Positions 5,175 to 64,000 are shown, numbered from the stretch's first letter. The stretch is DNA of 64,000 nucleotides from Candidatus Omnitrophota bacterium (GCA_017992455.1 JAGOOP010000007.1:2335-66334), one strand, 5' to 3'. Numbers and translations are program-made. The notes: a model not told the origin generated them from the sequence alone.

Positions 5175-6890
5175 TCAAAGGATTTTGGAACCTGAAAGTT
5201 CCTGGAACACTACGCATGAGGGAGAGAGAGAAATAACCGAATCCGCCTGATCAAGCACTGACTGCCGGTGAGAAACAAAGATCACTGACCTGCCTTTACT
5301 CCAGGATCGCAATGCTTCGAATATCCTGTCTTCGGTCACAGAATCAACCGATGCGGTCGCCTCATCGAGCACCAAAATATCCGGTTCCCTGACCAGCGCG
5401 CGGGCAATAGTCAGGCGCTGTTTCTGGCCGTGCGACAGCCGGCAGGCGTCCTCTCCGATGACTGTATCGTACCCCTGCGGCAAAGCAAGAATATCGTCAT
5501 GGATACAGGCGATCCTGGCTGAACGCTCAACCGCCTCATCCGACACACCCTTCACTCCGCAGGCAATATTGCTCCGCACCGTGTCATCGAACAACAGCGG
5601 CTGCTGCGAGGCAATGGCAATGCGCCTGCGCAATGACGCAACACGGATATCCTCCAGAGCTATCCCGTCCAGAAGGATATTGCCTGACCATGGCTGATAC
5701 AACCGCAGAAGCAGGTTCAGAACCGTTGATTTGCCGCATCCGGAAGGCCCGGTAATGCCGGTCATGGAATGCGCGGGTATGATAAACGAAAGGCCTTTGA
5801 GGACCGGTCTGTCCTTTTGATACCCGAACGTGACATTCCTGACCTCGACAGCGCCGTTGAGACTGCCGATCGCGCGCGCGCCCGGATTGTCGACGGCCGG
5901 CACAGGCGCGTCCATGATGTCAGAAAATTTCGAAAAAGACACGCTTTCTTCGACGCAATACCTCCACCCCGCTCCTGCGGAACTGAACAATGCGCCAATC
6001 TGGGTCAAGTAGATCATCACTGCCGTGTAACTGCCAAGCGTCACCTCGCCTTTGATGATCAGCCAGCCGCCGTAGAGCGTGATCGCCCCGTAAATGAACT
6101 TGGACAGGAATGACGACAGCAACGAATCGACCTGGAGCCAGCGGAAATTCTTTGCCTTCCAGTGCAGGTTTTCGACGAGCGCGCGCATGAACGCCCGCCT
6201 CCGGGACTGTTCAAGCCCGAGCGCCTTGATGATATACATCCGGGATAGCGATTCGAATACCCTGCGCGACAGCAACGCCCCTGATTCCCAGAGACGGCTG
6301 AATACCGGCCGGATGCGCTTCTGCACGTACATGCTGCGCAGAAGAAACAACGGGCTTAACAAAAGCATGAAGACGGTCAACCGCGCGTTCACGATCGTCG
6401 CGATCGCAAGTATGATCGCGATCTGGATAACATCCACGAACATCCTCGGGATATGCTCGGTCAAGAAGAACGCCGTCGTCTCGATATCGAAAAAACGATA
6501 TATCGTCTCGCCCGAAGACAAAGACTGGAAAAACGGCATATCGAGGTTAAACAGTTTCCTTAAAAACCCTCCCGCAAGCCGTAAGCGCACCTGAACCGCG
6601 ATCCTGTTCACGAGAAATTCCCCCGTCAGCTTCACAAGCGCGCTGAACAAGAAGATAGAACCGCCGGCGATCGAAAGGCGCACGAACGCCTGCCAGTCCT
6701 TGTTCAAAAAAGCGTCGTCAATAAGATACCTGGAAAAGAACGGGGCTGTAAGGAAGAATACGCTTGATACGAGCTCAAGGGCGGATATGGCGAAAATCTG
6801 AGTGCGGAACTTGTTGATAAGCGGGATAAAAGAGATCCCGGGGAATAACTGTTTATTCTTTGGTCGTTCTTTCATACGGGATACCGTCAT
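5175..6890 (-). CDS. ABC exporter, fused permease/ATPase (MsbA-like type I exporter)
   Basis: 571 aa. N-terminal six-TM domain, then Walker A GPSGCGKST, signature LSHGQKQR and Walker B ILVLDEATAS. Confidence 0.85.
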   Translation of the reverse strand: MTVSRMKERPKNKQLFPGISFIPLINKFRTQIFAISALELVSSVFFLTAPFFSRYLIDDAFLNKDWQAFVRLSIAGGSIFLFSALVKLTGEFLVNRIAVQVRLRLAGGFLRKLFNLDMPFFQSLSSGETIYRFFDIETTAFFLTEHIPRMFVDVIQIAIILAIATIVNARLTVFMLLLSPLFLLRSMYVQKRIRPVFSRLWESGALLSRRVFESLSRMYIIKALGLEQSRRRAFMRALVENLHWKAKNFRWLQVDSLLSSFLSKFIYGAITLYGGWLIIKGEVTLGSYTAVMIYLTQIGALFSSAGAGWRYCVEESVSFSKFSDIMDAPVPAVDNPGARAIGSLNGAVEVRNVTFGYQKDRPVLKGLSFIIPAHSMTGITGPSGCGKSTVLNLLLRLYQPWSGNILLDGIALEDIRVASLRRRIAIASQQPLLFDDTVRSNIACGVKGVSDEAVERSARIACIHDDILALPQGYDTVIGEDACRLSHGQKQRLTIARALVREPDILVLDEATASVDSVTEDRIFEALRSWSKGRSVIFVSHRQSVLDQADSVISLSPSCVVFQELSGSKIL

Positions 6891-6891
6891 A

Positions 6892-7695
6892 TCATTTCAT
6901 AGAATCAGGCAACGCATCCGCAATCCGGGCGAAATCCGAAAGGCCCAGCTTTTCGGACCTAATATGCGGATCAATGCCTGCCGACGCGAATATGTCCGCG
7001 AGCGCACCCCCGGATACGATGTTTTTAAGGCAATTCCTTATCTGTTTACGCCTTTGCTGGAATGACGCGCGGATGATCCTGAAGAATAATTCCTCATCCG
7101 TAATAGATACAGCCGGTTTTGGCCGCACGGCAAGCTTTAAAAAACAGGACTCGACTTTCGGCTGCGGATAAAAACACCCGCGCCTGATCACAAATTCGAT
7201 CTTAGGCTCTGAGTAATACTGAACAAAACAACTGAACGCGCCGTAATGCTCACTACCCGGCTGGGCGACGACACGCTGCCCGAACTCCTTTTGCACCGTA
7301 AGATATATCGCTGATATCCTGTTGCGGAAAGAGACTAGATGTTCGATAATAGGAGAGGTGATGTAATACGGGATATTGCCGACAACCTTGAGCTTGTGCG
7401 ACGGCGGGATAGACACGGCAGAAAGGTCATATTTCAAGAAATCTGCATTAATAACGGTTACCCGGGGATCTCCCTGAAACCGTCCCGACAGCTCAGCGCT
7501 TAATGCGCGGTCCACTTCCACAGCGATCAGCCGTTTTACTTTCGGGGCTATCAGTTCGGTCAGAGCGCCCTGGCCCGGGCCGATCTCGAGGACCGTGTCG
7601 CGTTCTGAAAGATCGCACGCGGCAATGATCTTCCTGCGGATATTCGGGTCCTGAAGAAAGTTCTGGCCTAGGCTTTTCTTTGGTTTTGCACGCAT
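6892..7695 (-). CDS. rsmA: 16S rRNA (adenine1518/1519-N6)-dimethyltransferase
   Basis: KKSLGQNFLQDPNI and VLEIGPGQGALT SAM motifs. Downstream of pdxA, as in the surA-pdxA-ksgA operon. Confidence 0.9.
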   Translation of the reverse strand: MRAKPKKSLGQNFLQDPNIRRKIIAACDLSERDTVLEIGPGQGALTELIAPKVKRLIAVEVDRALSAELSGRFQGDPRVTVINADFLKYDLSAVSIPPSHKLKVVGNIPYYITSPIIEHLVSFRNRISAIYLTVQKEFGQRVVAQPGSEHYGAFSCFVQYYSEPKIEFVIRRGCFYPQPKVESCFLKLAVRPKPAVSITDEELFFRIIRASFQQRRKQIRNCLKNIVSGGALADIFASAGIDPHIRSEKLGLSDFARIADALPDSMK

Positions 7696-8612
7696 CGCAA
7701 AGCAAGGTTGACAGCTGCGCGTAATGATGCCGGGTCTGCTTTATGTTTCCCTGCTATGTCGAATCCGGTGCCGTGAAGGGGCGAAGTCCTGACGAACGGC
7801 AGGCCGAGCGTCAGGTTCACTCCGGTCCGGTCGCCGGTCAGTTTAAGCGGGATCATCGCCTGGTCATGGTACATCGCAAGAACGCAATCGTACATGCCTG
7901 CGGCTGCCTTTGTAATCGCAACATCAGCACCGAGAGGGCCGCTGACCCCGGGGAACCGGCAGGACCGGATGGCAGGACAGATAACTGTATTCTCCTCATT
8001 GCCGATAACGCCGTTATCCGAACCGTGGGGATTGATGCCGAGGACAACGATCTTCGGTTTTCGTATGCCGAACAACGTGCGCAGCGCATCATGGGTCGTG
8101 CGCAGGGTCGAGCATATGTTCCGGCTGTTCAGCTTCCTGCTGACCGCTGCCAGAGGCACGTGCCTGGTCACGAGGCTGAATTTTAAGCAATCATTCACCA
8201 GCATCATGACAACATCAGGCCGGTGAGCCCGGGCCGCGAAATATTCCGTATGTCCGCTGTACGGGTATCCTGCCTTATGCACCGCCTCTTTCGAGATCGG
8301 GCCGGTGACGAGGCAGTCGATCTCTCCTGCGCCAAGCAGGCCCATTGCTGCGTCAAGATATTCTATCGACGCCTTGCCGTTTTTTGCGGATATTTTTCCG
8401 AATACAAAACGACGGCGATCCGCGTTTGCCAGGTCCACGAATTGAAAAGGCAGGCGAAAATTTCTTCTGCCTGCCGCCTTATCGAACACGTTCCTGTCGC
8501 CTATTACAACATACCGGACATTCCTGCTGTCCTTCAGGCCGGCGCCGGCAATGATCTCGGGCCCGATGCCTGCCGGGTCCCCCATGGTGATAGCGACCCT
8601 GATCTTATTCAT
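7668..8612 (-). CDS. pdxA: 4-hydroxythreonine-4-phosphate dehydrogenase
   Basis: Start moved to the ATG at 8612 (MNKIRVAITMGDPAGIGPEI). It forms an ATGA overlap with the stop of the upstream surA-like gene. C-terminal FVRTSPLHGTGFDIAGK motif present. Confidence 0.9.
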   Translation of the reverse strand: MNKIRVAITMGDPAGIGPEIIAGAGLKDSRNVRYVVIGDRNVFDKAAGRRNFRLPFQFVDLANADRRRFVFGKISAKNGKASIEYLDAAMGLLGAGEIDCLVTGPISKEAVHKAGYPYSGHTEYFAARAHRPDVVMMLVNDCLKFSLVTRHVPLAAVSRKLNSRNICSTLRTTHDALRTLFGIRKPKIVVLGINPHGSDNGVIGNEENTVICPAIRSCRFPGVSGPLGADVAITKAAAGMYDCVLAMYHDQAMIPLKLTGDRTGVNLTLGLPFVRTSPLHGTGFDIAGKHKADPASLRAAVNLALRCVQNQRKA

Positions 8613-20750: not shown

Positions 20751-23396
20751 CTACGCGATCACGTTTTTCAGTATCGCCTGTATCTTTTCAAACGCCGCTT
20801 CGATCCTGTCGGGCTGTGTACCGCCTGCCTGGGCAAAATCCTTCCTTCCGCCGCCGGACCCGCCGATCTCGGGCGCAACCTGCTTGATCATCGCCTGGGA
20901 ATCGATCGACGGGATGTTCGTCGCGATAATAAGATTCGCCCTGCCCTCGCCGCCTGACCCCAGGGCAATGACGACCCGTTGTTCCTTCTGCTTTATCAGA
21001 TCGGCGGCCTTGCGCAAAATATCCATATCGGCGCCCTGCAGCCGCTCCATGATGACCTTCACGCCTTTGATATCAGCCGCCCGGGCGATCAACCGGTCGA
21101 TATCGGCCGCCACGGACTGCAGCCGCTGGCTCGCCAGCTGCTTTTCCATGTCTTTGATGGTCTTGAGCCGCTTCTCGAGTTCGGAAACAGCCTTGTCAAC
21201 AGGAGCGCGCAAGGCCTGCGCCACGGCGCTCATTGCTTCCTGTTCCTCTTTCATGAGCCGATATGCGGTGCTGCCCGTTGCTGCCTCTATCCTGCGCACC
21301 CCGCTGGCAACCGAACTCTCGTGCAAAATTTTGAACAGCCCGATGAACCCGGTCTGGTCAAGATGCGTTCCGCCGCAGAACTCTTTCGAAACGCCTTCGA
21401 CGGAAACGACGCGCACCGTATCTTCGTATTTTTCAGCGAAGAACGCGAGCGCCCCTTGTTTACGCGCCTCCTCCAGCGACATCTCTCTTTTGGAAACCTG
21501 AAGGTTCCCGATCACCAATCCGTTGACGATCTCTTCGATCCGGTCCAGTTCCGGCTGGCTGACCTGCTTGAAATGCGTGAAATCGAACCGCAGTCGGTCG
21601 ACGCCGACCCACGATCCCTGCTGCTGCACATGGTCGCCGAGGACTTTGCGCAGGGCCGCCTGAAGCAGATGCGTTGCGGTATGATTGCGCGCGATCGAAA
21701 GCCTGCGTTGGACATCGACCTGTACTTGAGCCGGATCGCCGCTGTTGATCGTCCCTTCTTTGACTGTGCCGACGTGCAAAAAAACTTTCTCGAATTTCCG
21801 GGTATCCGCCACTTCGAACACGCCGGTCGCGGTCCTGATGAACCCCGTATCTCCGACCTGGCCGCCTGATTCCGCATAGAACACAGACGAATCAAGAATG
21901 AGCTTGGCTTCTTCTCCGGTCTGTATCCGGTCTGTTTCCTGCCCGTCCCTGAGTATCTTGATGATCTTTGCATCACCCGACACAGTTTCATATCCGGTAA
22001 AGACGGTCGCGGCAACATCCTTCAGGTGCGCTTCCTTCAGGTTGAACACGTCGCCCTGCATTGCGCTCTGCGCCTTGGACCGCTCTTTCTGCTGACCGAG
22101 CTCCTGATCATAAGCTTTTTGTGAAAACATTATCTTCTTCGTATTCAACCAACTAGCTGTCAAATCAACAGGTATCCCATGAGTATCATATAATTGAAAA
22201 GCAATTTTACCTGCTAAATCAGGATTTTGATTACGTTCAAATCCAGCAAATTTATCTTTGAGCAACTGAGTGCTAGTTTTTAAGGTCGCAATGAAGCTTT
22301 TCTCTTCAGCTAAAATAACGTCTGCAATATTTTCTTGCCTACGCACTAAATCAGGATATGGCACTTTCATTACTTGCGCAACAATAGGAACTAATTTATT
22401 CAAAAATGGTTCTTGCTGTGTTTTCCAGAGGCTAAAAATACATTTACGTATTAATTTTCTGATAACGTAACCACGGCCCTCGTTAGATGGTAAAACACCA
22501 TCATATATAGAAAAAGTTACGGCTCGCATATGATCCGCAATCGAATATATAACTGTATTGCTATAGAATGGTTTCCTTGCATCTACATCTTCAAGCTTAA
22601 GAACATATTCTTCAGATATCTGTCTGATCTCCTTGATTATGGGCTGGAACAGGTCTGTCTCGAAGTTGTTCGTGACGCCCTGCATGACCGCGGTGATGCG
22701 TTCAAGGCCCATGCCCGTATCGATATTTTTCTGGGGCAGGGGCTCGAGCACGCCGCCGTCCTTGCGGTTGAACTGCGTGAACACCAGGTTCCATATCTCG
22801 ATGAACCTGCCGCACGAGCATGCAGGCGAGCAGTCCGGTTTCTTACATCCGACCGACGGCCCGAGGTCTATGAATATCTCCGAGCAAGGGCCGCACGGGC
22901 CGTTGGGGCCGTTCTCCTTCGCGTCGGCAGGCCAGAAATTCTCGTGATCCCCGAGCCGGACGATCTTCGCCGCGGGGAATTTAACGTCATTCTTCCAGAT
23001 ATCGTACGCCTCATCGTCGTCCTTATACACCGAGACCCATAACCGCTCGGGAGCGATCGCAAGCTCCTGGGTCAGGAATTCCCATGCCCAGGCGATCGCC
23101 TCCTTCTTGAAATAATCCCCGAACGAGAAATTCCCGAGCATTTCGAAGAACGTGTGATGGCAGTCGGTCTTGCCGACTTTATCAAGGTCGTCGGTGCGCA
23201 GGCAGCGCTGAGAGCTCGCGGCGCGGGTAAAATCGGTGATCATTCCGAGGAACTGCTTCTTGAACTGGTTCATGCCCGCGGGAGTGAACAGGACCGTCGG
23301 GTCGTCCTTGGGCACCAGGGAGTCGCTTTCGGCTACTTTATGGCCTTTTGATCTGAAGAACTGCAGATATTTTTCGCGCAGTATGTCAGCTTTCAT
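20751..23396 (-). CDS. alaS: alanine--tRNA ligase
   Basis: 881 aa. FTPAGMNQFK, class II core, editing-domain HTATHLL and C-terminal DHHA1-like GGGRKDFAQAGG. Confidence 0.95.
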   Translation of the reverse strand: MKADILREKYLQFFRSKGHKVAESDSLVPKDDPTVLFTPAGMNQFKKQFLGMITDFTRAASSQRCLRTDDLDKVGKTDCHHTFFEMLGNFSFGDYFKKEAIAWAWEFLTQELAIAPERLWVSVYKDDDEAYDIWKNDVKFPAAKIVRLGDHENFWPADAKENGPNGPCGPCSEIFIDLGPSVGCKKPDCSPACSCGRFIEIWNLVFTQFNRKDGGVLEPLPQKNIDTGMGLERITAVMQGVTNNFETDLFQPIIKEIRQISEEYVLKLEDVDARKPFYSNTVIYSIADHMRAVTFSIYDGVLPSNEGRGYVIRKLIRKCIFSLWKTQQEPFLNKLVPIVAQVMKVPYPDLVRRQENIADVILAEEKSFIATLKTSTQLLKDKFAGFERNQNPDLAGKIAFQLYDTHGIPVDLTASWLNTKKIMFSQKAYDQELGQQKERSKAQSAMQGDVFNLKEAHLKDVAATVFTGYETVSGDAKIIKILRDGQETDRIQTGEEAKLILDSSVFYAESGGQVGDTGFIRTATGVFEVADTRKFEKVFLHVGTVKEGTINSGDPAQVQVDVQRRLSIARNHTATHLLQAALRKVLGDHVQQQGSWVGVDRLRFDFTHFKQVSQPELDRIEEIVNGLVIGNLQVSKREMSLEEARKQGALAFFAEKYEDTVRVVSVEGVSKEFCGGTHLDQTGFIGLFKILHESSVASGVRRIEAATGSTAYRLMKEEQEAMSAVAQALRAPVDKAVSELEKRLKTIKDMEKQLASQRLQSVAADIDRLIARAADIKGVKVIMERLQGADMDILRKAADLIKQKEQRVVIALGSGGEGRANLIIATNIPSIDSQAMIKQVAPEIGGSGGGRKDFAQAGGTQPDRIEAAFEKIQAILKNVIA
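22108..22640 (-). other. AT-rich in-frame mosaic segment inside alaS
   Basis: Hand count gives 20/60 G+C at 22141-22200, against 34/60 at 22681-22740. The segment still encodes conserved AlaRS sequence (ADHMRAVTFSIYDGVLPSNEGRGYVIRKLIRK). Confidence 0.7.
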
Positions 23397-59977: not shown

Positions 59978-60838
59978 TTAGCCGTCCTCCCCGCCCAGAT
60001 ATTCGGCGAGTATCGCCCGGTCATCATCCCCGATGAACTCGAACACTCCGGCGATATCGAACCCCGGATGCGCCTGATCCATCGACTCTTTTCTCTGGAC
60101 CCGAAGTATCTTGACCATAAAATCAACGCCTTTGCCTTCCTTAAAATCAAGCTCGCATATAAGATCGACATCGACCGGCAACGCGACCGCGGACACAAAA
60201 CAGATCCCCGCAACGCTGATATTGACGGTTTGGGCCTGGAAGGCCCTGCCGTGGAACATATAATCCATGCTGATCTTTTTGTTGATCCTCGCATATCTTC
60301 TGCGCTCTGCGCCGCGATATGCTTTGGTCTGAATGAATTCCCGCATGAGCGCGTGCTTCTTCAGGTCCTCGGCGCTCGAATCGCGCATCTTCCGGATATC
60401 ATCCGCATAATAATGCTCGATAGCTTCTTTGATCTCTGAGAACGTGCTGATGAACACCTTCACGTCGTAATTCGTCATCTGGTGGATCATCTGGATCACG
60501 CCTTCATTCAGGGGGTCGGCCATCGCGACCGATATGGTGTTGCCGATCTTATCGATAGGGATAAGGGAATATAACCTGGCCCATTTCAACGGCACCAGGG
60601 AAAGAACATCCCGGGGGATCGTGTAGAGCTTAAGCGGTAAATACGCAAAATCATATTGGTTCGACAGAGCGACCGCAACATCTTGTTCGGTGGCGAAACC
60701 CAATGCGATCAGATGCTGGCTGATATACCCGCCCTTCTGCCGCTGCTCTTCGAGCGCCTGATCGAGCTCTTCATGCGTGATGACCTTCCGCTCTATCAAA
60801 AGTTCGCCTATCTTGCGCCTCAACGTCCGCGTGATCAT
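59978..60838 (-). CDS. MshEN (T2SSE_N)-domain plus PilZ-domain protein, putative c-di-GMP receptor
   Basis: The N-terminal tandem MshEN-type motifs are RKIGELLIERKVITHEELDQALEEQ and ISQHLIALGFATEQDVAVALSNQ. The C-terminal PilZ motifs are RRRYAR (RxxxR) and NISVAG (D/NxSxxG). Confidence 0.75.
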   Translation of the reverse strand: MITRTLRRKIGELLIERKVITHEELDQALEEQRQKGGYISQHLIALGFATEQDVAVALSNQYDFAYLPLKLYTIPRDVLSLVPLKWARLYSLIPIDKIGNTISVAMADPLNEGVIQMIHQMTNYDVKVFISTFSEIKEAIEHYYADDIRKMRDSSAEDLKKHALMREFIQTKAYRGAERRRYARINKKISMDYMFHGRAFQAQTVNISVAGICFVSAVALPVDVDLICELDFKEGKGVDFMVKILRVQRKESMDQAHPGFDIAGVFEFIGDDDRAILAEYLGGEDG

Positions 60839-60947: not shown

Positions 60948-61421
60948 TCAGAACTTTGAGGTAAATGCATACATCAGGCGGCCCTTTTCGATGATCGGCT
61001 CGCCCTTCATCCTGAATACCCTGACACTGGCTTTTTTCTTGACCCAGCGCTCGACTTCCTTGGCGCGGTAATACGGATACCATACGTCAAAACCGAATGC
61101 CTCTTTCCATGCTTCGCGAACGACCTCATTTTCGTCGCGCACGGGCTTGGTGCAGAATGAGTTGAACGCGGCGCGGTCGATATGCGTTGAGGCGGGCTGT
61201 ATTCCGGCGGTATCTGCCAGGCGCGGATACTCCATGACCATACCTCTCCATGCGATCGCTGAGAAATCATCATCGGTAACGGCTATCTTGAGCGTGACCG
61301 GCGCGATCGGAGGAATACTTCCCATCACCGGAGCGTGAACAAACATATCCTGCGCGTGCGCGAACGGCTGCAGGATCAGGATGCTCAGGATTATCACTAA
61401 TTGGATGATTGCGGCTGTCAT
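60948..61421 (-). CDS. hypothetical secreted protein
   Basis: The ATG at 61421 is preceded by AAGGGAGA. Signal peptide MTAAIIQLVIILSILILQPFAHA. 157 aa. Confidence 0.5.
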   Translation of the reverse strand: MTAAIIQLVIILSILILQPFAHAQDMFVHAPVMGSIPPIAPVTLKIAVTDDDFSAIAWRGMVMEYPRLADTAGIQPASTHIDRAAFNSFCTKPVRDENEVVREAWKEAFGFDVWYPYYRAKEVERWVKKKASVRVFRMKGEPIIEKGRLMYAFTSKF

Positions 61422-61547
61422 TTTTGTCTCCCTTAAGAATATAACATATAAATAGACAGATTTCAACCTTGAATTGAAATATTTTCAAGTAAAAATAGCA
61501 ATCATAAATTATATATAAGTCTAATATTGAAAGTGATTTATAAAAAA

Positions 61548-61587
61548 ACATCCGCCCAGGCATTCAACCTGCGCGGATGTTTTTAAA
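61548..61587 (-). terminator. intrinsic terminator downstream of the 77-aa ORF
   Basis: ACATCCGC (61548-55) pairs with GCGGATGT (61573-80). On the minus strand the stem is followed by a T7 run. Confidence 0.6.
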
Positions 61588-61601
61588 AAAAATTCTTAAA
61601 A

Positions 61602-61835
61602 TTACATGTTTATACCTACCTGGCCGCTCGATGATATTAAATACGACGTGTAGTGCCAGCTCTTTTCGCCGTACGGATTGAAGCTGAACGTCGGCACAAA
61701 CACCTCCACCGTTCCGTATATCTCGTAATGATCGCCGACTTTTCTCAAAGCCGATTCGATCGATCTTCCGTCAACGGTGCGGATAATAGTATTATACGTG
61801 ACGCCTTGTTCCGGATAGGACGCAAACTGGATCAC
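61602..61835 (-). CDS. hypothetical small protein (77 aa)
   Basis: An ORF with its own downstream terminator. Beta-rich, no motif recognised. Confidence 0.35.
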   Translation of the reverse strand: MIQFASYPEQGVTYNTIIRTVDGRSIESALRKVGDHYEIYGTVEVFVPTFSFNPYGEKSWHYTSYLISSSGQVGINM

Positions 61836-61899
61836 GGTGTTGTCAGGAAGTGTGCCCGAACTGGACGCCAGACGAACTTCACAACTCCAAGTAATACAT

Positions 61900-62283
61900 A
61901 TGGTTGTGAAAATTTACACGCGCAGAAGCAAGAAACAATTAATCCGTTTTGGCGATCCTTTGCCTGAGAAACCTCAGCGGGCAAAGCGTATTTATCAAAA
62001 TGTTATCTACGAAGGCCTGAAACTTCAAGCCTTTATCAATAACGGCTCTACCAGAATAACCTGGGCGCAAGCCCGTAAAGAGTTAAAAATTTCAGAATCC
62101 AAGTTAGCACACTTATTAAAAATAATCAATCAATTACCGCCGGATTTCGTCGAAAACATGAGATCATGCAAAGATCCGGAAGTCCTAAAAATCTTCACTG
62201 GCCGAAGACTGTTGCAAATCTCCCGCCTTAAAACCGAGAAAGAACGCCGGGCAGAGATTGAACACCTATTGCCCAAGGTTTAA
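61900..62283 (+). CDS. ParB-like helix-turn-helix DNA-binding protein lacking the ParB N-terminal domain
   Basis: ATG at 61900 (MVVKIYTRR...). ITWAQARKELKISESKLAHLLKIINQLPPDFVENM resembles the ParB/Spo0J HTH region (LTQEELA..lG.S.s.v...LrLl.LP..v...). 127 aa. Confidence 0.4.
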   Translation: MVVKIYTRRSKKQLIRFGDPLPEKPQRAKRIYQNVIYEGLKLQAFINNGSTRITWAQARKELKISESKLAHLLKIINQLPPDFVENMRSCKDPEVLKIFTGRRLLQISRLKTEKERRAEIEHLLPKV

Positions 62284-62339
62284 GCCTTCTTACCCCTGTA
62301 ATACACCTCTGTTGCCCGTTTTGACCCATTATTACCCTC

Positions 62340-63755
62340 TTAATCATTACTGATTCCAAATATTTCAAAGAATTTCTCAGCAAAAGATCGTTGGTAGCTG
62401 TCTTTAAAATCTTTGGCCTTAGCTTCATTAGACATGTCTTCCTTGATAAATCCATAACAATTTACGCAATATTCAACAACTATCTCGTTATTTTCTTTGA
62501 GGGTCAATCGTTTTGTTTCCCTCTCATAACCCGAGAAAGAATCTTTAACTTTCTTGGGTTCATCTTCAAAGATATAAAATTCTAAGCCATGTATTTCCTT
62601 TTTTATAACATCAAAATTTATTCTCATGCCAAGCCAAATATTATTCTTGTTTTTTGGATATCGTTCATAAAAACTAACTAGCTCTTTCTCTGCTCTAGTT
62701 AAAATCTGCTCCACACATCTATGATAAAAATCAACAAGCTCATTTTTATCCAATATCTCTTTTTTTCTGCGATATTCTTCCAAAGCAGTCGCAAAATCCT
62801 CTTGCCGATGAACATCTCGAGCATTCGCACAAATATTACCACTGCTTCCTATATAGGCCCCGAGATCATCGCTCAACTTAGCTATTTTGACAGGATCGCT
62901 CTCTAAAAGAATGTTCTTAAGAACCTCTATCGGCTCTTCAAGGTCAAACAAAATACTCTGCGCGTGTTTCTTTATATTTGAAACTTCTTTCTTAATATCG
63001 CAATAAAAATTTGGAATCGTCGTATCAGCATAAAACTCTTCTATTTTGTCGATGTTAATTCTTCCAAGGTTAATATCAGCAATATAATGTGAAATCTTTT
63101 GATAGTGATCAACGTCGATTTCTAAATCTGAAGTCAAAACCTTTCTTAGAAGATCAGCGCGGACACTCTCTTTGTCGATAATTACATTTAATAATTTTGT
63201 TAAGTTATTAAGTAAAAAGTTTCTTTGCCGCGTCAATACCTCAAGACCATTTTCAGCTTCAGTCCAATATTCTTTAAAATACTCGTCAACCAAATCCGGC
63301 AGTTTATTAATATCAATAGCTTGGCGTATAAGTTTATCCAACCTTTCACTTTTTAAAGTATTGTAGATACTATCCAAAGACGTTGGGAGAAATCGACCGT
63401 TGATAATAACCATACAACCATCGACATAAACTTCTTTTAAGTCATAAATATGCTTGTACGGCTCATTGAATGATTGTTTTATTTGATTTGCAAGTGCAAA
63501 ATAACTCGAGCTGCCAGAAGAAGAGCCAGTAACATCTCCAGATTTAACGATAACCGCAACATAATTAATTTTCTTAAATTTGGCGTCGAGCTCTTTGCAA
63601 ACAATGTCTTTTCCTTTTTCATTGCTATGGTGATGAAGTATTGGATCAATAAACCCCATTTTAGACAATAACGGGATTAACACTAACTCCCGGAGGTCTT
63701 TTTCGTTTAATTCTTGAAGCAATTGAATTTTCTTTTCTTTTGTTAACGCTGTCAT
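62340..63755 (-). CDS. Mrr-like PD-(D/E)xK nuclease-fold N-terminal domain protein with large uncharacterised helical C-terminus
   Basis: The ATG at 63755 is preceded by GAAGG; the track start at 63761 is a TTG. The N-terminus LRELVLIPLLSKMGFIDP...EKGKDIVC...NYVAVIVKSGD fits the Mrr_cat pattern (E...D...xK). The remaining ~340 aa are K/E/N/D-rich with no recognised motif. Very low G+C. Confidence 0.6.
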   Translation of the reverse strand: MTALTKEKKIQLLQELNEKDLRELVLIPLLSKMGFIDPILHHHSNEKGKDIVCKELDAKFKKINYVAVIVKSGDVTGSSSGSSSYFALANQIKQSFNEPYKHIYDLKEVYVDGCMVIINGRFLPTSLDSIYNTLKSERLDKLIRQAIDINKLPDLVDEYFKEYWTEAENGLEVLTRQRNFLLNNLTKLLNVIIDKESVRADLLRKVLTSDLEIDVDHYQKISHYIADINLGRINIDKIEEFYADTTIPNFYCDIKKEVSNIKKHAQSILFDLEEPIEVLKNILLESDPVKIAKLSDDLGAYIGSSGNICANARDVHRQEDFATALEEYRRKKEILDKNELVDFYHRCVEQILTRAEKELVSFYERYPKNKNNIWLGMRINFDVIKKEIHGLEFYIFEDEPKKVKDSFSGYERETKRLTLKENNEIVVEYCVNCYGFIKEDMSNEAKAKDFKDSYQRSFAEKFFEIFGISND

Positions 63756-63776
63756 TTCCAACCTTCTACATGTTCA

Positions 63777-64000
63777 TTAAAAACCATATTTTTCTTTTCT
63801 TAGCTTAAATGCCGCTTCTCCGCCTTCCATAACTTTTGTTATTTCGTTACGAATATTGCTGATATCAATCGCGCCCAGATGTTTAATCTCGCCTTTTGAT
63901 TGATCGGTGGTAATCTTATAGTCACAACAAACAACGAGTTCCGCGTCCCCATTAACGACAATATTGGCATTATGGCTGGCAAATATTAATTGTCTTTTCT
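63777..64000 (-). CDS. C-terminal end of an ABC/Rad50-SMC-type ATPase (partial; gene continues past the window end)
   Basis: Hand translation gives ...KRQLIFASHNANIVVNGDAELVVCCDYKITTDQSKGEIKHLGAIDISNIRNEITKVMEGGEAAFKLRKEKYGF*. The QxIxxSHN...GDAE segment looks like the H-loop region of SMC-like ATPases. The stop lies 21 nt before the next gene. Confidence 0.45.
   Translation of the reverse strand, partial: KRQLIFASHNANIVVNGDAELVVCCDYKITTDQSKGEIKHLGAIDISNIRNEITKVMEGGEAAFKLRKEKYGF

What the first reader, a model, noticed from the sequence alone, without database searches (positions are those of the whole stretch)
61440..64000. Abrupt AT-rich island at the window end
G+C drops from about 57% (34/60 at 60001-60060) to about 28% (17/60 at 63001-63060). 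The drop starts right after the last core gene, whose start is at 61421.

The island holds four ORFs with no housekeeping function:
- a 77-aa ORF
- a ParB-like HTH protein
- an Mrr-like protein
- a partial SMC-type ATPase

Gene polarity, codon composition and gene function all change at the same point. This is the classic signature of recently acquired DNA, such as a defence island or mobile-element remnant. No tRNA, integrase or flanking direct repeat is visible inside the window, and the far border is not in view.
Basis: seen in the sequence. Interest (0 to 1): 0.6.

Follow-up and report, generated by a model that had tools for sequence, protein, structure and literature searches.

The report
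Mobile defence island splitting a native gene
The AT-rich end of the window is real foreign DNA: the first 2.1 kb of an integrated mobile element that carries anti-phage genes.

Summary
**Observation.** The G+C drop is real: 0.548 in the core against 0.35 for 62230-64000. Tetranucleotide distance is about 21 sd from the core. The border, however, is at 61853-61855, not 61440.

**What is native.**
- Eight conspecific contigs are 99.1-99.97% identical up to 61860, then continue with an intact 1374/1401-aa gene.
- The AT-rich spacer 61422-61601 is therefore native.
- The "77-aa ORF" is the 3' stump of that disrupted gene.

**What is foreign.** It begins with a 36-nt end, TGCCCGAACTGGACGCCAGACGAAC..., which abuts about 37 different flanks in other metagenomes. 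After it come:
- a 127-aa protein with a ParB-type HTH fold;
- a variable cargo slot that here holds a 471-aa protein with a nuclease-like N-terminal domain;
- a TrlF-family PHP/SMC-like ATPase, a relative of the anti-phage protein Ppl;
- beyond the window, a type II methyltransferase, a HEAT-repeat protein, and conserved 60-aa and 249-aa genes.

**Likely integration mechanism.** In relatives the same end is joined to the 3' end of a large serine recombinase gene. That gene belongs to prophages integrated at the 3' end of tRNA-Gln, with core TGGYTGCCC. So this is most likely an att junction at a secondary site.

**Open points.** It is unresolved whether this copy is a whole prophage, a remnant, or an integrase-less hitchhiker. 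The source contig ends about 2.4 kb past the window.

**Verdict.** A known kind of thing, in a family not described before.

The parts
60948..61421 (-). Last intact native gene (157 aa, no family hit). Not part of the island; listed as the anchor.
   Evidence: The identical protein is found on 12 contigs of Ca. Omnitrophota with conserved neighbours. G+C 0.54, GC3 0.665.
61422..61601 (.). Native AT-rich intergenic spacer (G+C 0.256). It holds a promoter-like site for the 157-aa gene, and an inverted repeat ACATCCGC...GCGGATGT (61548-61580) flanked by A and T runs.
   Evidence: 99.3-100% identical in L004-L013. Promoter-like TTGAAA-17-TATATT on the minus strand at 61466-61438. The repeat was read; the terminator scanner did not call it.
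61602..61852 (-). 3' stump (last ~84 codons) of a native 1374/1401-aa secreted protein gene with faint TPR hits.
   Evidence: In L004-L011 a 1374/1401-aa gene ends 180 nt from the 157-aa gene, exactly as here. The C-terminal residues are identical and diverge upstream of '...TLPDNTVIQFASY'. GC3 0.615.
61853..61888 (+). Element end: 36 nt, TGCCCGAACTGGACGCCAGACGAACTTCACAACTCC. The crossover lies in TG at 61853-61854; the first foreign-specific base is 61855.
   Evidence: Exact copy in 14 loci whose adjacent gene is only 89-94% identical. Homology of 27 further loci to the window starts at exactly 61853. 37 distinct flanks. Occurs once in the window, with 0 expected. Resembles the antisense 3' end of tRNA-Gln.
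61900..62283 (+). Terminal gene 'ORF148' (127 aa from the ATG), a small DNA-binding protein with a ParB/Noc-type HTH domain. It reads inward from the element end.
   Evidence: 132 homologues at 56-96% identity, mostly Omnitrophota and Deltaproteobacteria, none with a Pfam domain. AF2 pLDDT 82.8. The top 38 Foldseek PDB hits are all ParB/Noc/Spo0J/SopB DNA-binding domains, best TMq 0.54-0.57 and rmsd ~3.2 A over ~97 residues. No Pfam, NCBIfam or PADLOC hit.
62284..62339 (.). C/T-rich spacer with GCCC-type motifs about 11 nt apart (TTACCCC, TTGCCCG, TGACCC, TTACCC). It marks the boundary between the conserved end module and the variable cargo.
   Evidence: Conserved at ~80% in 8 other contexts (homology to 62328-62342), while other cargo variants diverge at 62246-62263. 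Three contigs 99.9-100% identical to the window's cargo all end at 62223-62230.
62340..63755 (-). 'p471', a 471-aa protein. Its N-terminal ~170 residues have a restriction-endonuclease-like (PD-(D/E)xK-type) fold. The rest is helical plus a C-terminal beta domain of unknown function.
   Evidence: 73 homologues, length conserved at 464-477 aa, no Pfam domain. Invariant H42 E46 G48 K49 D50 D57 K71 Q91 Q94. AF2 pLDDT 81.3. Foldseek best hits are MspJI, FokI and HamA nuclease domains (E 1.7e-3, prob 1.0, TM ~0.2). Residues 7-169 are 36% identical to P0190, which carries PF04471. 0 of 48 members hit Mrr_cat.
63777..64000 (-). C-terminal 73 codons plus stop of a 933-aa TrlF-family ATPase with an N-terminal PHP domain. 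It lies 21 nt upstream of p471 on the same strand.
   Evidence: The fragment hits NF045780 TrlF_fam_ATP at E 9e-31 (profile 875-944/944), and also Spaf_1101 and Ppl. The full gene on L001 (99.94% identical DNA) scores 534 bits against a cut-off of 350 over profile 1-944. PHP is weak (4e-4); AAA_23 and SMC_N are present.

Best explanation
**What it is.** Window 61853-64000 is the outermost 2.1 kb of a horizontally acquired element. The element integrated by site-specific recombination into a native 1374/1401-aa gene of a Candidatus Omnitrophota bacterium.

**Anatomy (shown).**
- A 36-nt conserved end.
- An inward-reading gene for a small protein with a ParB-type HTH fold.
- A cargo slot read on the opposite strand.
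- Conserved 60-aa (RHH-like) and 249-aa genes that close the slot.

In this lineage the slot holds four genes:
- p471, with a nuclease-like N-terminal domain;
- a TrlF-family PHP/SMC-like ATPase;
- a type II N6/N4 DNA methyltransferase;
- a 488-aa HEAT-repeat protein.

In other lineages the same slot holds other cargo:
- Vsr + Dcm + HATPase;
- candidate SIR2 + HerA, type III R-M and CBASS-like sets (identified by reading their translations, no domain scan);
- TrlF alone;
- nothing at all.

**How it got there (inferred).** The end is one half of an att site used by a family of large serine recombinases (LSR) of Omnitrophota prophages.
- In these phages the att site overlaps the 3' end of the recombinase gene.
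- The natural target is the 3' end of a tRNA gene. For this end type it is tRNA-Gln(CTG), with core TGGYTGCCC.
- Here recombination used a non-tRNA secondary site that shares TG plus 7 of 8 bases (TGACCGAA against TGCCCGAA).

**What the cargo does (inferred from family membership).** It is anti-phage defence.
- TrlF probably acts like its relative Ppl. A review describes Ppl as an NTP-inhibited 3'-5' ssDNA exonuclease that is activated by nucleotide depletion and free 3'-OH ends.
- p471 would be a linked nuclease.
- The methyltransferase/HEAT pair would be a separate restriction-modification-like module.
For: **Foreign DNA inserted into a native gene.**
- The empty site is present in 8 conspecific contigs.
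- Composition and k-mer content deviate strongly from the core.

**A discrete mobile end.**
- 37 distinct flanks abut the same first base. 36 of 37 have a pyrimidine at -1, and -4..-2 is TGG or AAA, as expected for the antisense of a tRNA discriminator plus CCA or trailer.
- The same island, at 96-99% identity, sits in three different flanks: the window, L035/L016 and L042.

**Cargo slot.**
- ORF148, p60 and p249 are conserved at 88-97% around unrelated cargo.
- TrlF + p471 are swapped as a unit against other genes, while the methyltransferase + HEAT pair stays (L044/L046).

**Link to a large serine recombinase.**
- A Resolvase/Recombinase/Zn_ribbon protein is joined to the end in L068 and L073-L075.
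- The same recombinase ends a lambda-like prophage at tRNA-Gln, with a shared TGGCTGCCC.
- Of 42 IMG/VR proviruses with related recombinases, 28 have an antisense tRNA overlapping the gene's 3' end.
- The two recurrent flank types in front of ORF148 match the phage-side arms of the tRNA-Gln-type proviruses.
- L066 shows a 1.5-kb element between 9-bp direct repeats TGGTTGCCC, the right one being the tRNA-Gln 3' end.

**Defence function.**
- TrlF passes its NCBIfam cut-off, and Ppl is the next-best hit.
- The methyltransferase hits a PADLOC MTase_II model at 1.3e-159.
- The p471 fold resembles restriction-nuclease domains.
- The Ppl mechanism is taken from PMC12904381.

**Junction supported independently.**
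- Contig L013 stops at 61854.
- NCBI protein accessions run consecutively across the junction on a 66,382-nt MAG contig.
Against: - No recombinase, tRNA, second att site or phage gene is visible in the window, or in the 6.5 kb beyond it recovered from L001.
- The far end of the element was never found, and no second assembly with this exact junction was recovered.
- The window's flank has G at -1, unlike 36 of 37 other flanks.
- Over 50 nt the empty site matches the phage att joint no better than 3.8% of random positions in the window. Secondary-site choice by the recombinase is therefore not demonstrated.
- In most loci with enough sequence, host-like genes follow within 1-12 kb of the end, and no phage genes are seen.
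- ORF148 and the 25-nt end are absent from IMG/VR and from GenBank phages.
- A 31-kb walk along the tRNA-Gln prophage did not reach its other end.
- No defence activity has been tested, and p471 relatives also occur without TrlF.
Confidence: 0.72

Rival explanations
1. Integrase-less hitchhiker. The ORF148...p249 unit is not part of a phage. It is a small satellite- or CIME-like island that carries a copy of the phage att site and is moved in trans by the large serine recombinase of co-resident tRNA-targeting prophages. This is a sub-model of the best explanation: it differs only in what lies beyond the window.
For: - L066 is a 1.5-kb element without any recombinase, lying between the two att repeats at tRNA-Gln.
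- In L051, L060, L070, L110 and L113 a phage-type arm (GTTCGCCTGAGCGTCAAGGT) precedes ORF148, but the neighbouring genes are Fic or unknown genes on the other strand, not a recombinase.
- Host-like genes (MgtE, FeoB) follow the island within 1-12 kb in most loci.
- ORF148 is absent from IMG/VR.
Against: - In L073-L075 and L087 the recombinase gene is directly adjacent. The DNA to its left is the same phage as the tRNA-Gln prophage, which is what a circular phage attP would look like.
- Serine recombinases do not normally recombine attP with a hybrid attL, so tandem accretion is mechanistically awkward (established knowledge, not tested here).
- Small elements could equally be deletion remnants of prophages.
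Confidence: 0.35
2. Chimeric assembly. The contig joins an Omnitrophota chromosome fragment to an unrelated island-bearing fragment at about 61853.
For: - No second assembly with the same junction was found among 183 fetched loci.
- Island-side contigs from three other samples all stop at 62223-62230.
- The chromosome-side contig L013 stops at 61854.
- The window's flank is atypical at -1.
- The source is a metagenome-assembled genome.
Against: - The two parts share only 8 nt (7 of 8 identical), far too few for a k-mer graph mis-join.
- The break falls within 2 nt of the canonical element end defined by 37 other flanks, which a random mis-join would not do.
- The stops at 62223-62230 have another explanation: the ORF148 module is shared between elements with different cargo.
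- L013 ending at the last base common to both alleles is what a real polymorphism gives.
Confidence: 0.07
3. Illegitimate (microhomology-mediated) rearrangement. A pre-existing island end was joined to the native gene by non-site-specific recombination at TG(A/C)CCGAA, with deletion of the upstream part of the gene. This is not an insertion by a recombinase.
For: - There are 8 nt of near-identity at the junction.
- The site is not a tRNA, and its wider similarity to the att joint is not significant.
- The flank base at -1 is atypical.
- The far junction is unknown, so a simple insertion has not been shown.
Against: - The junction coincides to the base with the end used in all other contexts.
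- This would require a free or recombinogenic end exactly at the att crossover.
Confidence: 0.1
4. Island of a tyrosine-integrase type. tRNA 3'-end targets and 9-bp direct repeats are classic for tyrosine integrases. The serine recombinase might merely be a neighbour.
For: - The target is a tRNA-Gln 3' end.
- A 9-bp identical core is found at both ends in L066.
- The element end resembles a diverged tRNA 3' half.
Against: - The only recombinase at these junctions is the serine type. Its ORF runs across the att site in 5 loci here, and an antisense tRNA overlaps its 3' end in 28 of 42 proviruses.
- No integrase-like ORF was noted in the ORF-length and cluster maps of the ORF148 loci. Most of those ORFs were not domain-scanned.
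Confidence: 0.05

Closest known systems
Defence hotspots of temperate phages and their satellites (P2-like prophages, P4-like satellites) and of integrative elements. Cited from my own knowledge: Rousset et al. 2022.
   Same: Conserved frame genes (here ORF148 on one side, p60/p249 on the other) bracket a slot that holds different anti-phage systems in otherwise near-identical elements. The slot sits at the end of the element next to the att site.
   Different: - The frame genes are unrelated, with no Pfam or PADLOC hit and only sub-threshold PHROG hits (E about 0.004-0.005) for ORF148 and p60.
- The host phylum is Omnitrophota.
- The recombinase is a large serine recombinase, not a tyrosine integrase.
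- Many copies have no phage genes nearby.
Ppl, a single-gene anti-phage PHP/ATPase (NCBIfam NF042955, PADLOC PDLC02208).
   Same: The 933-aa protein has the same architecture, with an N-terminal PHP domain and an SMC/ABC-like ATPase with a coiled coil. It matches the Ppl models over residues 227-928 (200 bits; PADLOC E 7e-49).
   Different: - It scores far below the Ppl cut-off (1000 bits) and belongs to the sister family TrlF (534 bits against 350).
- Here it is followed 21 nt downstream by a 471-aa nuclease-like gene, and the two are exchanged together.
- No paper on TrlF was found.
Large-serine-recombinase prophages that interrupt host genes. Cited from my own knowledge: SPbeta in spsM, A118 in comK, the skin element in sigK.
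   Same: Relatives have a serine recombinase gene at the element end next to the att site. Here the insertion disrupts a host ORF that is intact in sister strains.
   Different: - The natural target of this recombinase family is the 3' end of tRNA genes, and the att site overlaps the recombinase's own 3' end.
- The gene hit here is a secondary site.
- The recombinase itself was not seen for this copy.
CIMEs, integrase-less cis-mobilisable elements flanked by att sites. Cited from my own knowledge: described for the Streptococcus thermophilus ICESt1/3 family.
   Same: L066 is a 1.5-kb element with both att repeats and no recombinase. Several loci show phage-type att arms next to ORF148 without a recombinase gene.
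   Different: - CIMEs depend on tyrosine integrases.
- Mobilisation in trans has not been shown here.
- These copies could be deletion remnants.
ParB/Noc/Spo0J/SopB centromere-binding proteins.
   Same: The fold of ORF148 residues ~30-125 matches the ParB HTH DNA-binding domain (TMq 0.54-0.57).
   Different: - ORF148 has no ParB N-terminal CTPase domain and no dimerisation domain.
- There is no Pfam ParB hit.
- It has 127 aa against about 280-330 aa.
- No partner ATPase is present.
Mrr, MspJI and FokI-type restriction nuclease domains.
   Same: The p471 N-terminal domain superposes on the MspJI, FokI and HamA catalytic domains. It is 36% identical to a protein annotated with Mrr_cat.
   Different: - No member of the family reaches Pfam Mrr_cat (0 of 48).
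- The canonical (D/E)xK triplet is not obvious: the sequence is I69-V70-K71, with D50, D57 and E46 invariant.
- About 300 further residues have an unknown role.

Membership tests
TrlF family AAA-like ATPase (NCBIfam NF045780) | Full-length match above the curated cut-off (350 bits) | tested here: met
   The 933-aa product of L001 (DNA 99.94% identical to the window over 1771 nt) scores 534.2 bits, E 1e-159, over profile 1-944/944. The window fragment of 72 aa matches profile 875-944 at E 9e-31.
TrlF family AAA-like ATPase (NCBIfam NF045780) | N-terminal PHP phosphoesterase domain plus an SMC/ABC-type ATPase | tested here: met
   Pfam PHP at 4e-4 (residues 38-98, below gathering). AAA_23 at 6e-10, SMC_N at 7e-11, AAA_21 at 1e-9. 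This is outside the window, seen on L001.
Ppl anti-phage protein (NF042955 / PADLOC PDLC02208) | Score above the NCBIfam cut-off (1000 bits) | tested here: not met
   199.5 bits; PADLOC Ppl at E 7e-49 over part of the length only. It is a relative, not a member.
Ppl anti-phage protein (NF042955 / PADLOC PDLC02208) | Protects cells against phage; NTP-inhibited 3'-5' ssDNA exonuclease | not testable with these tools
   The mechanism is known only from a review (PMC12904381).
Mrr-type restriction endonuclease (Pfam PF04471 Mrr_cat) | Sequence match to Mrr_cat | tested here: not met
   0 of 48 p471 family members match at E <= 0.01, and there is no hit for the window protein at E <= 0.1. Only the distant relative P0190 carries PF04471.
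Mrr-type restriction endonuclease (Pfam PF04471 Mrr_cat) | PD-(D/E)xK fold with a catalytic Asp ... (Asp/Glu/Gln)-x-Lys | tested here: inconclusive
   Foldseek best hits are the MspJI, FokI and HamA nuclease domains, but they are weak (E 1.7e-3 to 3e-2, TM ~0.2). D50, D57 and K71 are invariant, but the residue two before K71 is hydrophobic.
ParB/Spo0J family | HTH DNA-binding domain of ParB type | tested here: met
   The top 38 Foldseek PDB hits are all ParB/Noc/Spo0J/SopB, with prob up to 1.00 and best TMq 0.54-0.57. The model has pLDDT 82.8.
ParB/Spo0J family | N-terminal ParB_N (CTP-binding) domain and C-terminal dimerisation domain | tested here: not met
   The protein has 127 aa. Residues 1-33 are predicted unstructured, and there is no Pfam hit.
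Element integrated by a large serine recombinase | Empty target site in close relatives; a precise, recurrent element end | tested here: met
   Empty site in L004-L011. The same end abuts 37 different flanks.
Element integrated by a large serine recombinase | Recombinase gene (Resolvase + Recombinase + Zn_ribbon_recom) next to the att site of the same element | tested here: inconclusive
   Met in the relatives L068, L073-L075, L087 and L121-L124. Not seen for this copy, nor within 8.6 kb of its near-identical copies. The source contig ends about 2.4 kb past the window.
Element integrated by a large serine recombinase | Second junction (attR) with the displaced half of the target | not testable with these tools
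   It lies beyond the contig.
Element integrated by a large serine recombinase | The target resembles the recombinase's att site | tested here: inconclusive
   7 of 8 bases match next to the crossover. Over 50 nt there are 20 matches, and 3.8% of background positions do as well.
Prophage | Virion and packaging genes in the same element | tested here: inconclusive
   Present in the recombinase-bearing relative: TerS, TerL, portal, tube, GpJ and others. None is seen in the window lineage within 8.6 kb, where patatin and an RND pump paralogue lie behind p249.
Type II restriction-modification module | DNA methyltransferase | tested here: met
   The 329-aa product on L001 hits Pfam N6_N4_Mtase at 3e-42 and PADLOC MTase_II PDLC03323 at 1.3e-159. 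It lies outside the window.
Type II restriction-modification module | Cognate restriction endonuclease | tested here: inconclusive
   The adjacent 488-aa protein shows only HEAT repeats. The methyltransferase is split in L034 while the rest of the island is intact, which argues against a lethal partner.

The most novel reading that the evidence does not exclude
The ORF148...p249 units are a previously undescribed class of integrase-less carriers of defence cargo in Omnitrophota and neighbouring phyla. They keep a copy of the attP of tRNA-targeting large-serine-recombinase phages and are inserted in trans by the phage enzyme, as a serine-recombinase analogue of satellites or CIMEs. In addition, the att site lies inside the recombinase reading frame. 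Recombination therefore changes the enzyme's C-terminus: it is fused to the ParB-HTH domain in the joint state (695 aa) and to a junk tail in the integrated state (667 aa). This could be a built-in directionality switch.
Probability: 0.15. Interest if true: 0.7.

Novelty: new member of a known kind. Interest (0 to 1): 0.42.

Why it matters
**For this genome.** The island marks a strain-specific insertion that inactivated a large secreted protein gene, and it brought in at least two candidate anti-phage modules.

**More generally.**
- It gives a base-precise handle on mobile elements of Candidatus Omnitrophota, a phylum with almost no genetics. The handle consists of a 36-nt end, a core TGGYTGCCC and tRNA-Gln as the natural target.
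- It defines a cargo slot, bracketed by ORF148 and p60/p249, that can be mined for new defence genes. More than ten different cargo sets were seen in about 80 loci.
- It points to two untested candidates. One is the TrlF + p471 pair, a two-gene relative of Ppl. The other is a family of large serine recombinases that target tRNA 3' ends and whose own gene overlaps the att site.

Tried and rejected
1. **tRNA or structured RNA in the window.** ARAGORN found 0 genes and Rfam found 0 hits at the gathering threshold.
2. **Inverted or direct copy of the 25/36-nt end elsewhere.** There is no other copy in the window or at the far side of related loci. A transposon with terminal inverted repeats is therefore not supported.
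3. **The AT-rich spacer as the island border.** Rejected: it is native.
4. **ORF148 as a spurious antisense ORF.** Rejected: 132 conserved homologues and a confident fold.
5. **TrlF and p471 as an obligate pair.** Rejected.
   - p471 relatives stand alone next to HipBA or in other contexts.
   - TrlF occurs without p471 in L057 and L060.
   - The two are adjacent in three lineages (window, L025, L028).
6. **Search for the element in viral collections.**
   - ORF148, the 25-nt end and the empty-site flank are absent from IMG/VR.
   - ORF148 and p249 are absent from GenBank phages.
7. **Walking the tRNA-Gln prophage from the recombinase.**
   - The aim was to see whether ORF148 lies at its other end.
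   - About 31 kb were covered.
   - A related phage shows an HTH_17 gene followed by AT-rich cargo, but no ORF148.
8. **Statistical test that the empty site resembles the att joint.** Not significant.
9. **Literature on TrlF.** Nothing relevant was found.
11. **Terminator scan of the native spacer.** No call was made.

Full report
**1. The observation**

The compositional break is real.
- The core (1-61421) has G+C 0.548. No 2.56-kb window there falls below 0.495, with sd 0.018.
- 61440-64000 has 0.367 and 62230-64000 has 0.350.
- Tetranucleotide distance from the core is 0.675 for 61853-64000. Core windows of equal size give 0.208 +/- 0.022, maximum 0.293.
- GC3 drops from 0.65-0.69 to 0.31-0.33.
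- No tRNA gene and no Rfam family is present in the window.

**2. Where the foreign DNA really starts**

The 157-aa protein of 60948-61421 occurs unchanged on 12 public contigs of Candidatus Omnitrophota.
- Eight of these (L004-L011) are 99.1-99.97% identical to the window, and all stop matching at 61860.
- Beyond that point they carry a 1374/1401-aa gene with faint TPR hits. Its stop codon lies 180 nt from the 157-aa gene, exactly where the '77-aa ORF' ends here.
- The C-terminal ~84 residues are identical.
- The AT-rich spacer 61422-61601 and the 77-aa ORF are therefore native. The ORF is the stump of a disrupted gene.

From the other side, contigs carrying the island match the window from 61853 onward. 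L016-L019 and L034-L041 are about 95-96% identical, and L042 is 98.7% identical.

The two homology blocks overlap in TGCCCGAA (61853-61860). The empty site reads TGACCGAA. The crossover therefore lies in the TG at 61853-61854.

**3. The end is a recurrent, base-precise element end**
- The 36 nt TGCCCGAACTGGACGCCAGACGAACTTCACAACTCC are identical in 14 loci, although the adjacent gene is only 89-94% identical.
- In a scan of metagenomes, 27 further loci match the window starting at exactly 61853.
- In all, 37 non-redundant flanks abut this end.
- 36 of 37 flanks have C or T at -1, preceded by TGG (about 20 flanks) or AAA (about 11). The window, with G at -1, is the exception.
- The same island (96-99% identical) sits in three different flanks: this window, L035/L016 next to an efflux operon, and L042.

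**4. Anatomy of the element**

The first gene, ORF148 (61900-62283, 127 aa), has 132 homologues without any Pfam domain.
- Its AlphaFold model (pLDDT 82.8) matches only ParB/Noc/Spo0J/SopB DNA-binding domains among the top 38 PDB hits, best TMq 0.54-0.57.
- It lacks the ParB N-terminal and C-terminal domains.

Downstream, on the opposite strand, lies variable cargo closed by a 60-aa (weakly RHH/VapB-like) gene and a 249-aa gene.

Cargo sets identified by Pfam or family hits:
- p471 + TrlF + methyltransferase + HEAT488 (window, L001, L016, L035, L042);
- Vsr + Dcm + 458 aa + HATPase_c_3 (L014, L043, L045, L089);
- TrlF without p471 (L057, L060);
- no cargo at all (L055, L095).

Cargo sets named only by reading their translations, with no domain scan:
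- a candidate HerA-like + SIR2-like pair together with the same methyltransferase + HEAT pair (L044, L046);
- type III R-M-like genes with a caspase-like protein and an SMC-like ATPase (L074, L075);
- a candidate CBASS-like set (L092, L093).

Three contigs 99.9-100% identical to the window's cargo all stop at 62223-62230. The shared ORF148 module begins there, so it behaves as a repeat in assembly graphs.

**5. The cargo in and next to the window**

*TrlF fragment.*
- The fragment 63777-64000 is the C-terminus of a 933-aa protein that passes the NCBIfam TrlF cut-off (534 against 350 bits).
- Ppl is the next-best family (200 bits, cut-off 1000).
- It has a weak N-terminal PHP match and SMC/AAA_23 ATPase matches.
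- A 2026 review describes Ppl as an NTP-inhibited 3'-5' ssDNA exonuclease activated by nucleotide depletion and 3'-OH ends (PMC12904381).
- No paper on TrlF was found.

*p471 (62340-63755).*
- It starts 21 nt after the TrlF stop.
- Its family has 73 members of 464-477 aa, with no Pfam domain.
- The model (pLDDT 81.3) gives MspJI, FokI and HamA nuclease domains as best, though weak, matches for the N-terminal ~170 residues.
- Residues 7-169 are 36% identical to a protein annotated with Mrr_cat.
- No family member reaches Mrr_cat itself.
- p471 is next to PHP/ATPase genes in three lineages (window, L025, L028) and without them elsewhere.

*Beyond the window (L001).*
- A type II N6/N4 methyltransferase (PADLOC 1.3e-159).
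- The HEAT488 protein, p60 and p249.
- A gene that carries a Pfam Patatin hit in the equivalent loci and has a lipoprotein-like signal sequence by reading.

**6. How it probably integrates**

In L068 and L073-L075 the element end is preceded by the 3' end of a large serine recombinase gene (PHROG integrase 4e-105; Pfam Resolvase, Recombinase, Zn_ribbon_recom).
- The ORF runs in frame into ORF148, giving 695 aa.
- DNA to the left of it is about 90% identical to a prophage. That prophage carries a replication initiator, a sigma factor, ParB_N-methyltransferase, TerS, TerL, portal, tube and GpJ.
- The prophage's recombinase ends at tRNA-Gln(CTG) next to gltX.
- Phage homology stops within TGGCTGCCC, the antisense of the tRNA 3' end.

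Further support comes from other collections and loci.
- Forty-two IMG/VR proviruses encode relatives of this recombinase. In 28 of them a tRNA gene on the opposite strand overlaps its 3' end: Gln, Asn, His, Ser, Arg or Glu.
- The phage-side arms of the Gln-type proviruses are ...GTTGTCAACAT|TGGC and ...GTTCGCCTGAGCGTCAAGGT|TGGC. These are the two recurrent flank types found in front of ORF148.
- L066 shows a complete small element (ORF148 plus two membrane proteins, no recombinase). It lies between 9-bp direct repeats TGGTTGCCC, the right one being the tRNA-Gln 3' end.
- The flank consensus TGGY/AAAY is thus the antisense of discriminator + CCA, or discriminator + trailer.

I conclude that 61853 is an att junction of this recombinase family, used here at a non-tRNA site. 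This step is inferred, for three reasons.
- The recombinase of this copy was not seen.
- The wider similarity of the empty site to the att joint is not significant: 20 of 50 matches, and 3.8% of background positions do as well.
- The far junction is unknown.

**7. What remains open**

Three possibilities remain for the window's copy.
- **Complete prophage.** The joint in L075 looks like a phage attP.
- **Remnant.**
- **Integrase-less hitchhiker.** In most loci host-like genes follow within 1-12 kb, and ORF148 is absent from IMG/VR and GenBank phages.

The source contig (66,382 nt) ends about 2.4 kb after the window, inside TrlF.

**8. Artefact check**

A chimeric join is unlikely.
- Only 8 nt are shared at the junction.
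- The break coincides with the canonical element end.
- The independent contig L013 ends at 61854, the last base common to both alleles.

Only read mapping can exclude a chimera.

**9. Verdict**

Its interpretation (recently acquired defence island or mobile-element DNA) is supported.

The thing itself is a new member of a known kind: a defence-cargo region at the end of a site-specifically integrated element. Its interest lies mainly in three points:
- the base-precise att definition for Omnitrophota;
- the ORF148/p249 cargo slot;
- the untested TrlF + p471 pair.

Noticed in passing
L075:2683-4770 (also L074, L073, L068); L121:10001-12004: The large serine recombinase ORF crosses its own att site. 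In the joint configuration it is fused in frame to the ParB-HTH protein (695 aa, found in 5 contigs). When integrated at tRNA-Gln it reads into the antisense tRNA and gains a junk tail (667 aa, found in at least 8 contigs). In L087 the two parts are in the same frame but separated by a stop codon.
   Followed up: partly
L142-L183 (IMG/VR proviruses), around position 7600-7750 of each locus: A whole family of large serine recombinases (53-100% identical to P0220) has a tRNA gene on the opposite strand overlapping the 3' end of the recombinase gene. This holds for 28 of 42 proviruses, with tRNA-Gln, Asn, His, Ser, Arg or Glu. As far as I know, tRNA 3'-end targeting is unusual for serine integrases.
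   Followed up: partly
L066:9950-11530: A minimal 1.5-kb element (ORF148 plus two small membrane proteins, no recombinase) lies between 9-bp direct repeats TGGTTGCCC. The right repeat is the 3' end of tRNA-Gln(CTG), next to gltX.
   Followed up: yes
window 62284-62339 and the equivalent spacers in L048, L049, L064, L068, L070, L076: The C/T-rich spacer after ORF148 holds GCCC-type motifs about 11 nt apart. In several loci it is followed by AATCGCCAC repeats. These may be binding sites for the ParB-like protein.
   Followed up: no
L090:2502, 3703 and ~5550: Three copies of the element-end sequence lie in tandem on one 6-kb contig. The first two are followed only by short ORFs. This may be an array of degraded elements.
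   Followed up: no
L034:6222-7131: In one otherwise 99.99%-identical copy of the island, the type II methyltransferase gene is split (225 + 38 aa) while HEAT488, TrlF and p471 are intact. The methyltransferase is therefore probably not protecting against a lethal cognate nuclease.
   Followed up: no
L004:2202-4689, L009, L011 (upstream of the intact 1374/1401-aa gene): Conspecific genomes carry two or three LAGLIDADG homing-endonuclease ORFs (PF00961, PF03161) a few kb beyond the disrupted gene. I suspect intron-containing rRNA genes. In this strain that region lies behind the insertion and out of view.
   Followed up: no
window 22101-22600: This is the lowest-G+C 500-nt stretch of the core (0.348). 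It lies inside the 881-aa alanyl-tRNA synthetase gene (20751-23396, minus strand). It is a local dip within a housekeeping gene, not an island.
   Followed up: partly
L139:3654-9560: In a related phage, an HTH_17 (excisionase-like) gene is followed by an abrupt fall in G+C (0.50 to 0.35). The cargo there includes a 617-aa zinc-ribbon/coiled-coil protein and an 833-aa HSP70-like protein. This looks like a second cargo region in these phages.
   Followed up: no
L086:1731-2012 against L143, L166, L179 around 5600-5800: The flank in front of ORF148 in L086 is homologous to phage DNA lying just upstream of the recombinase gene, in inverted orientation (54-71% at the protein level). No simple integration model explains this arrangement.
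   Followed up: no
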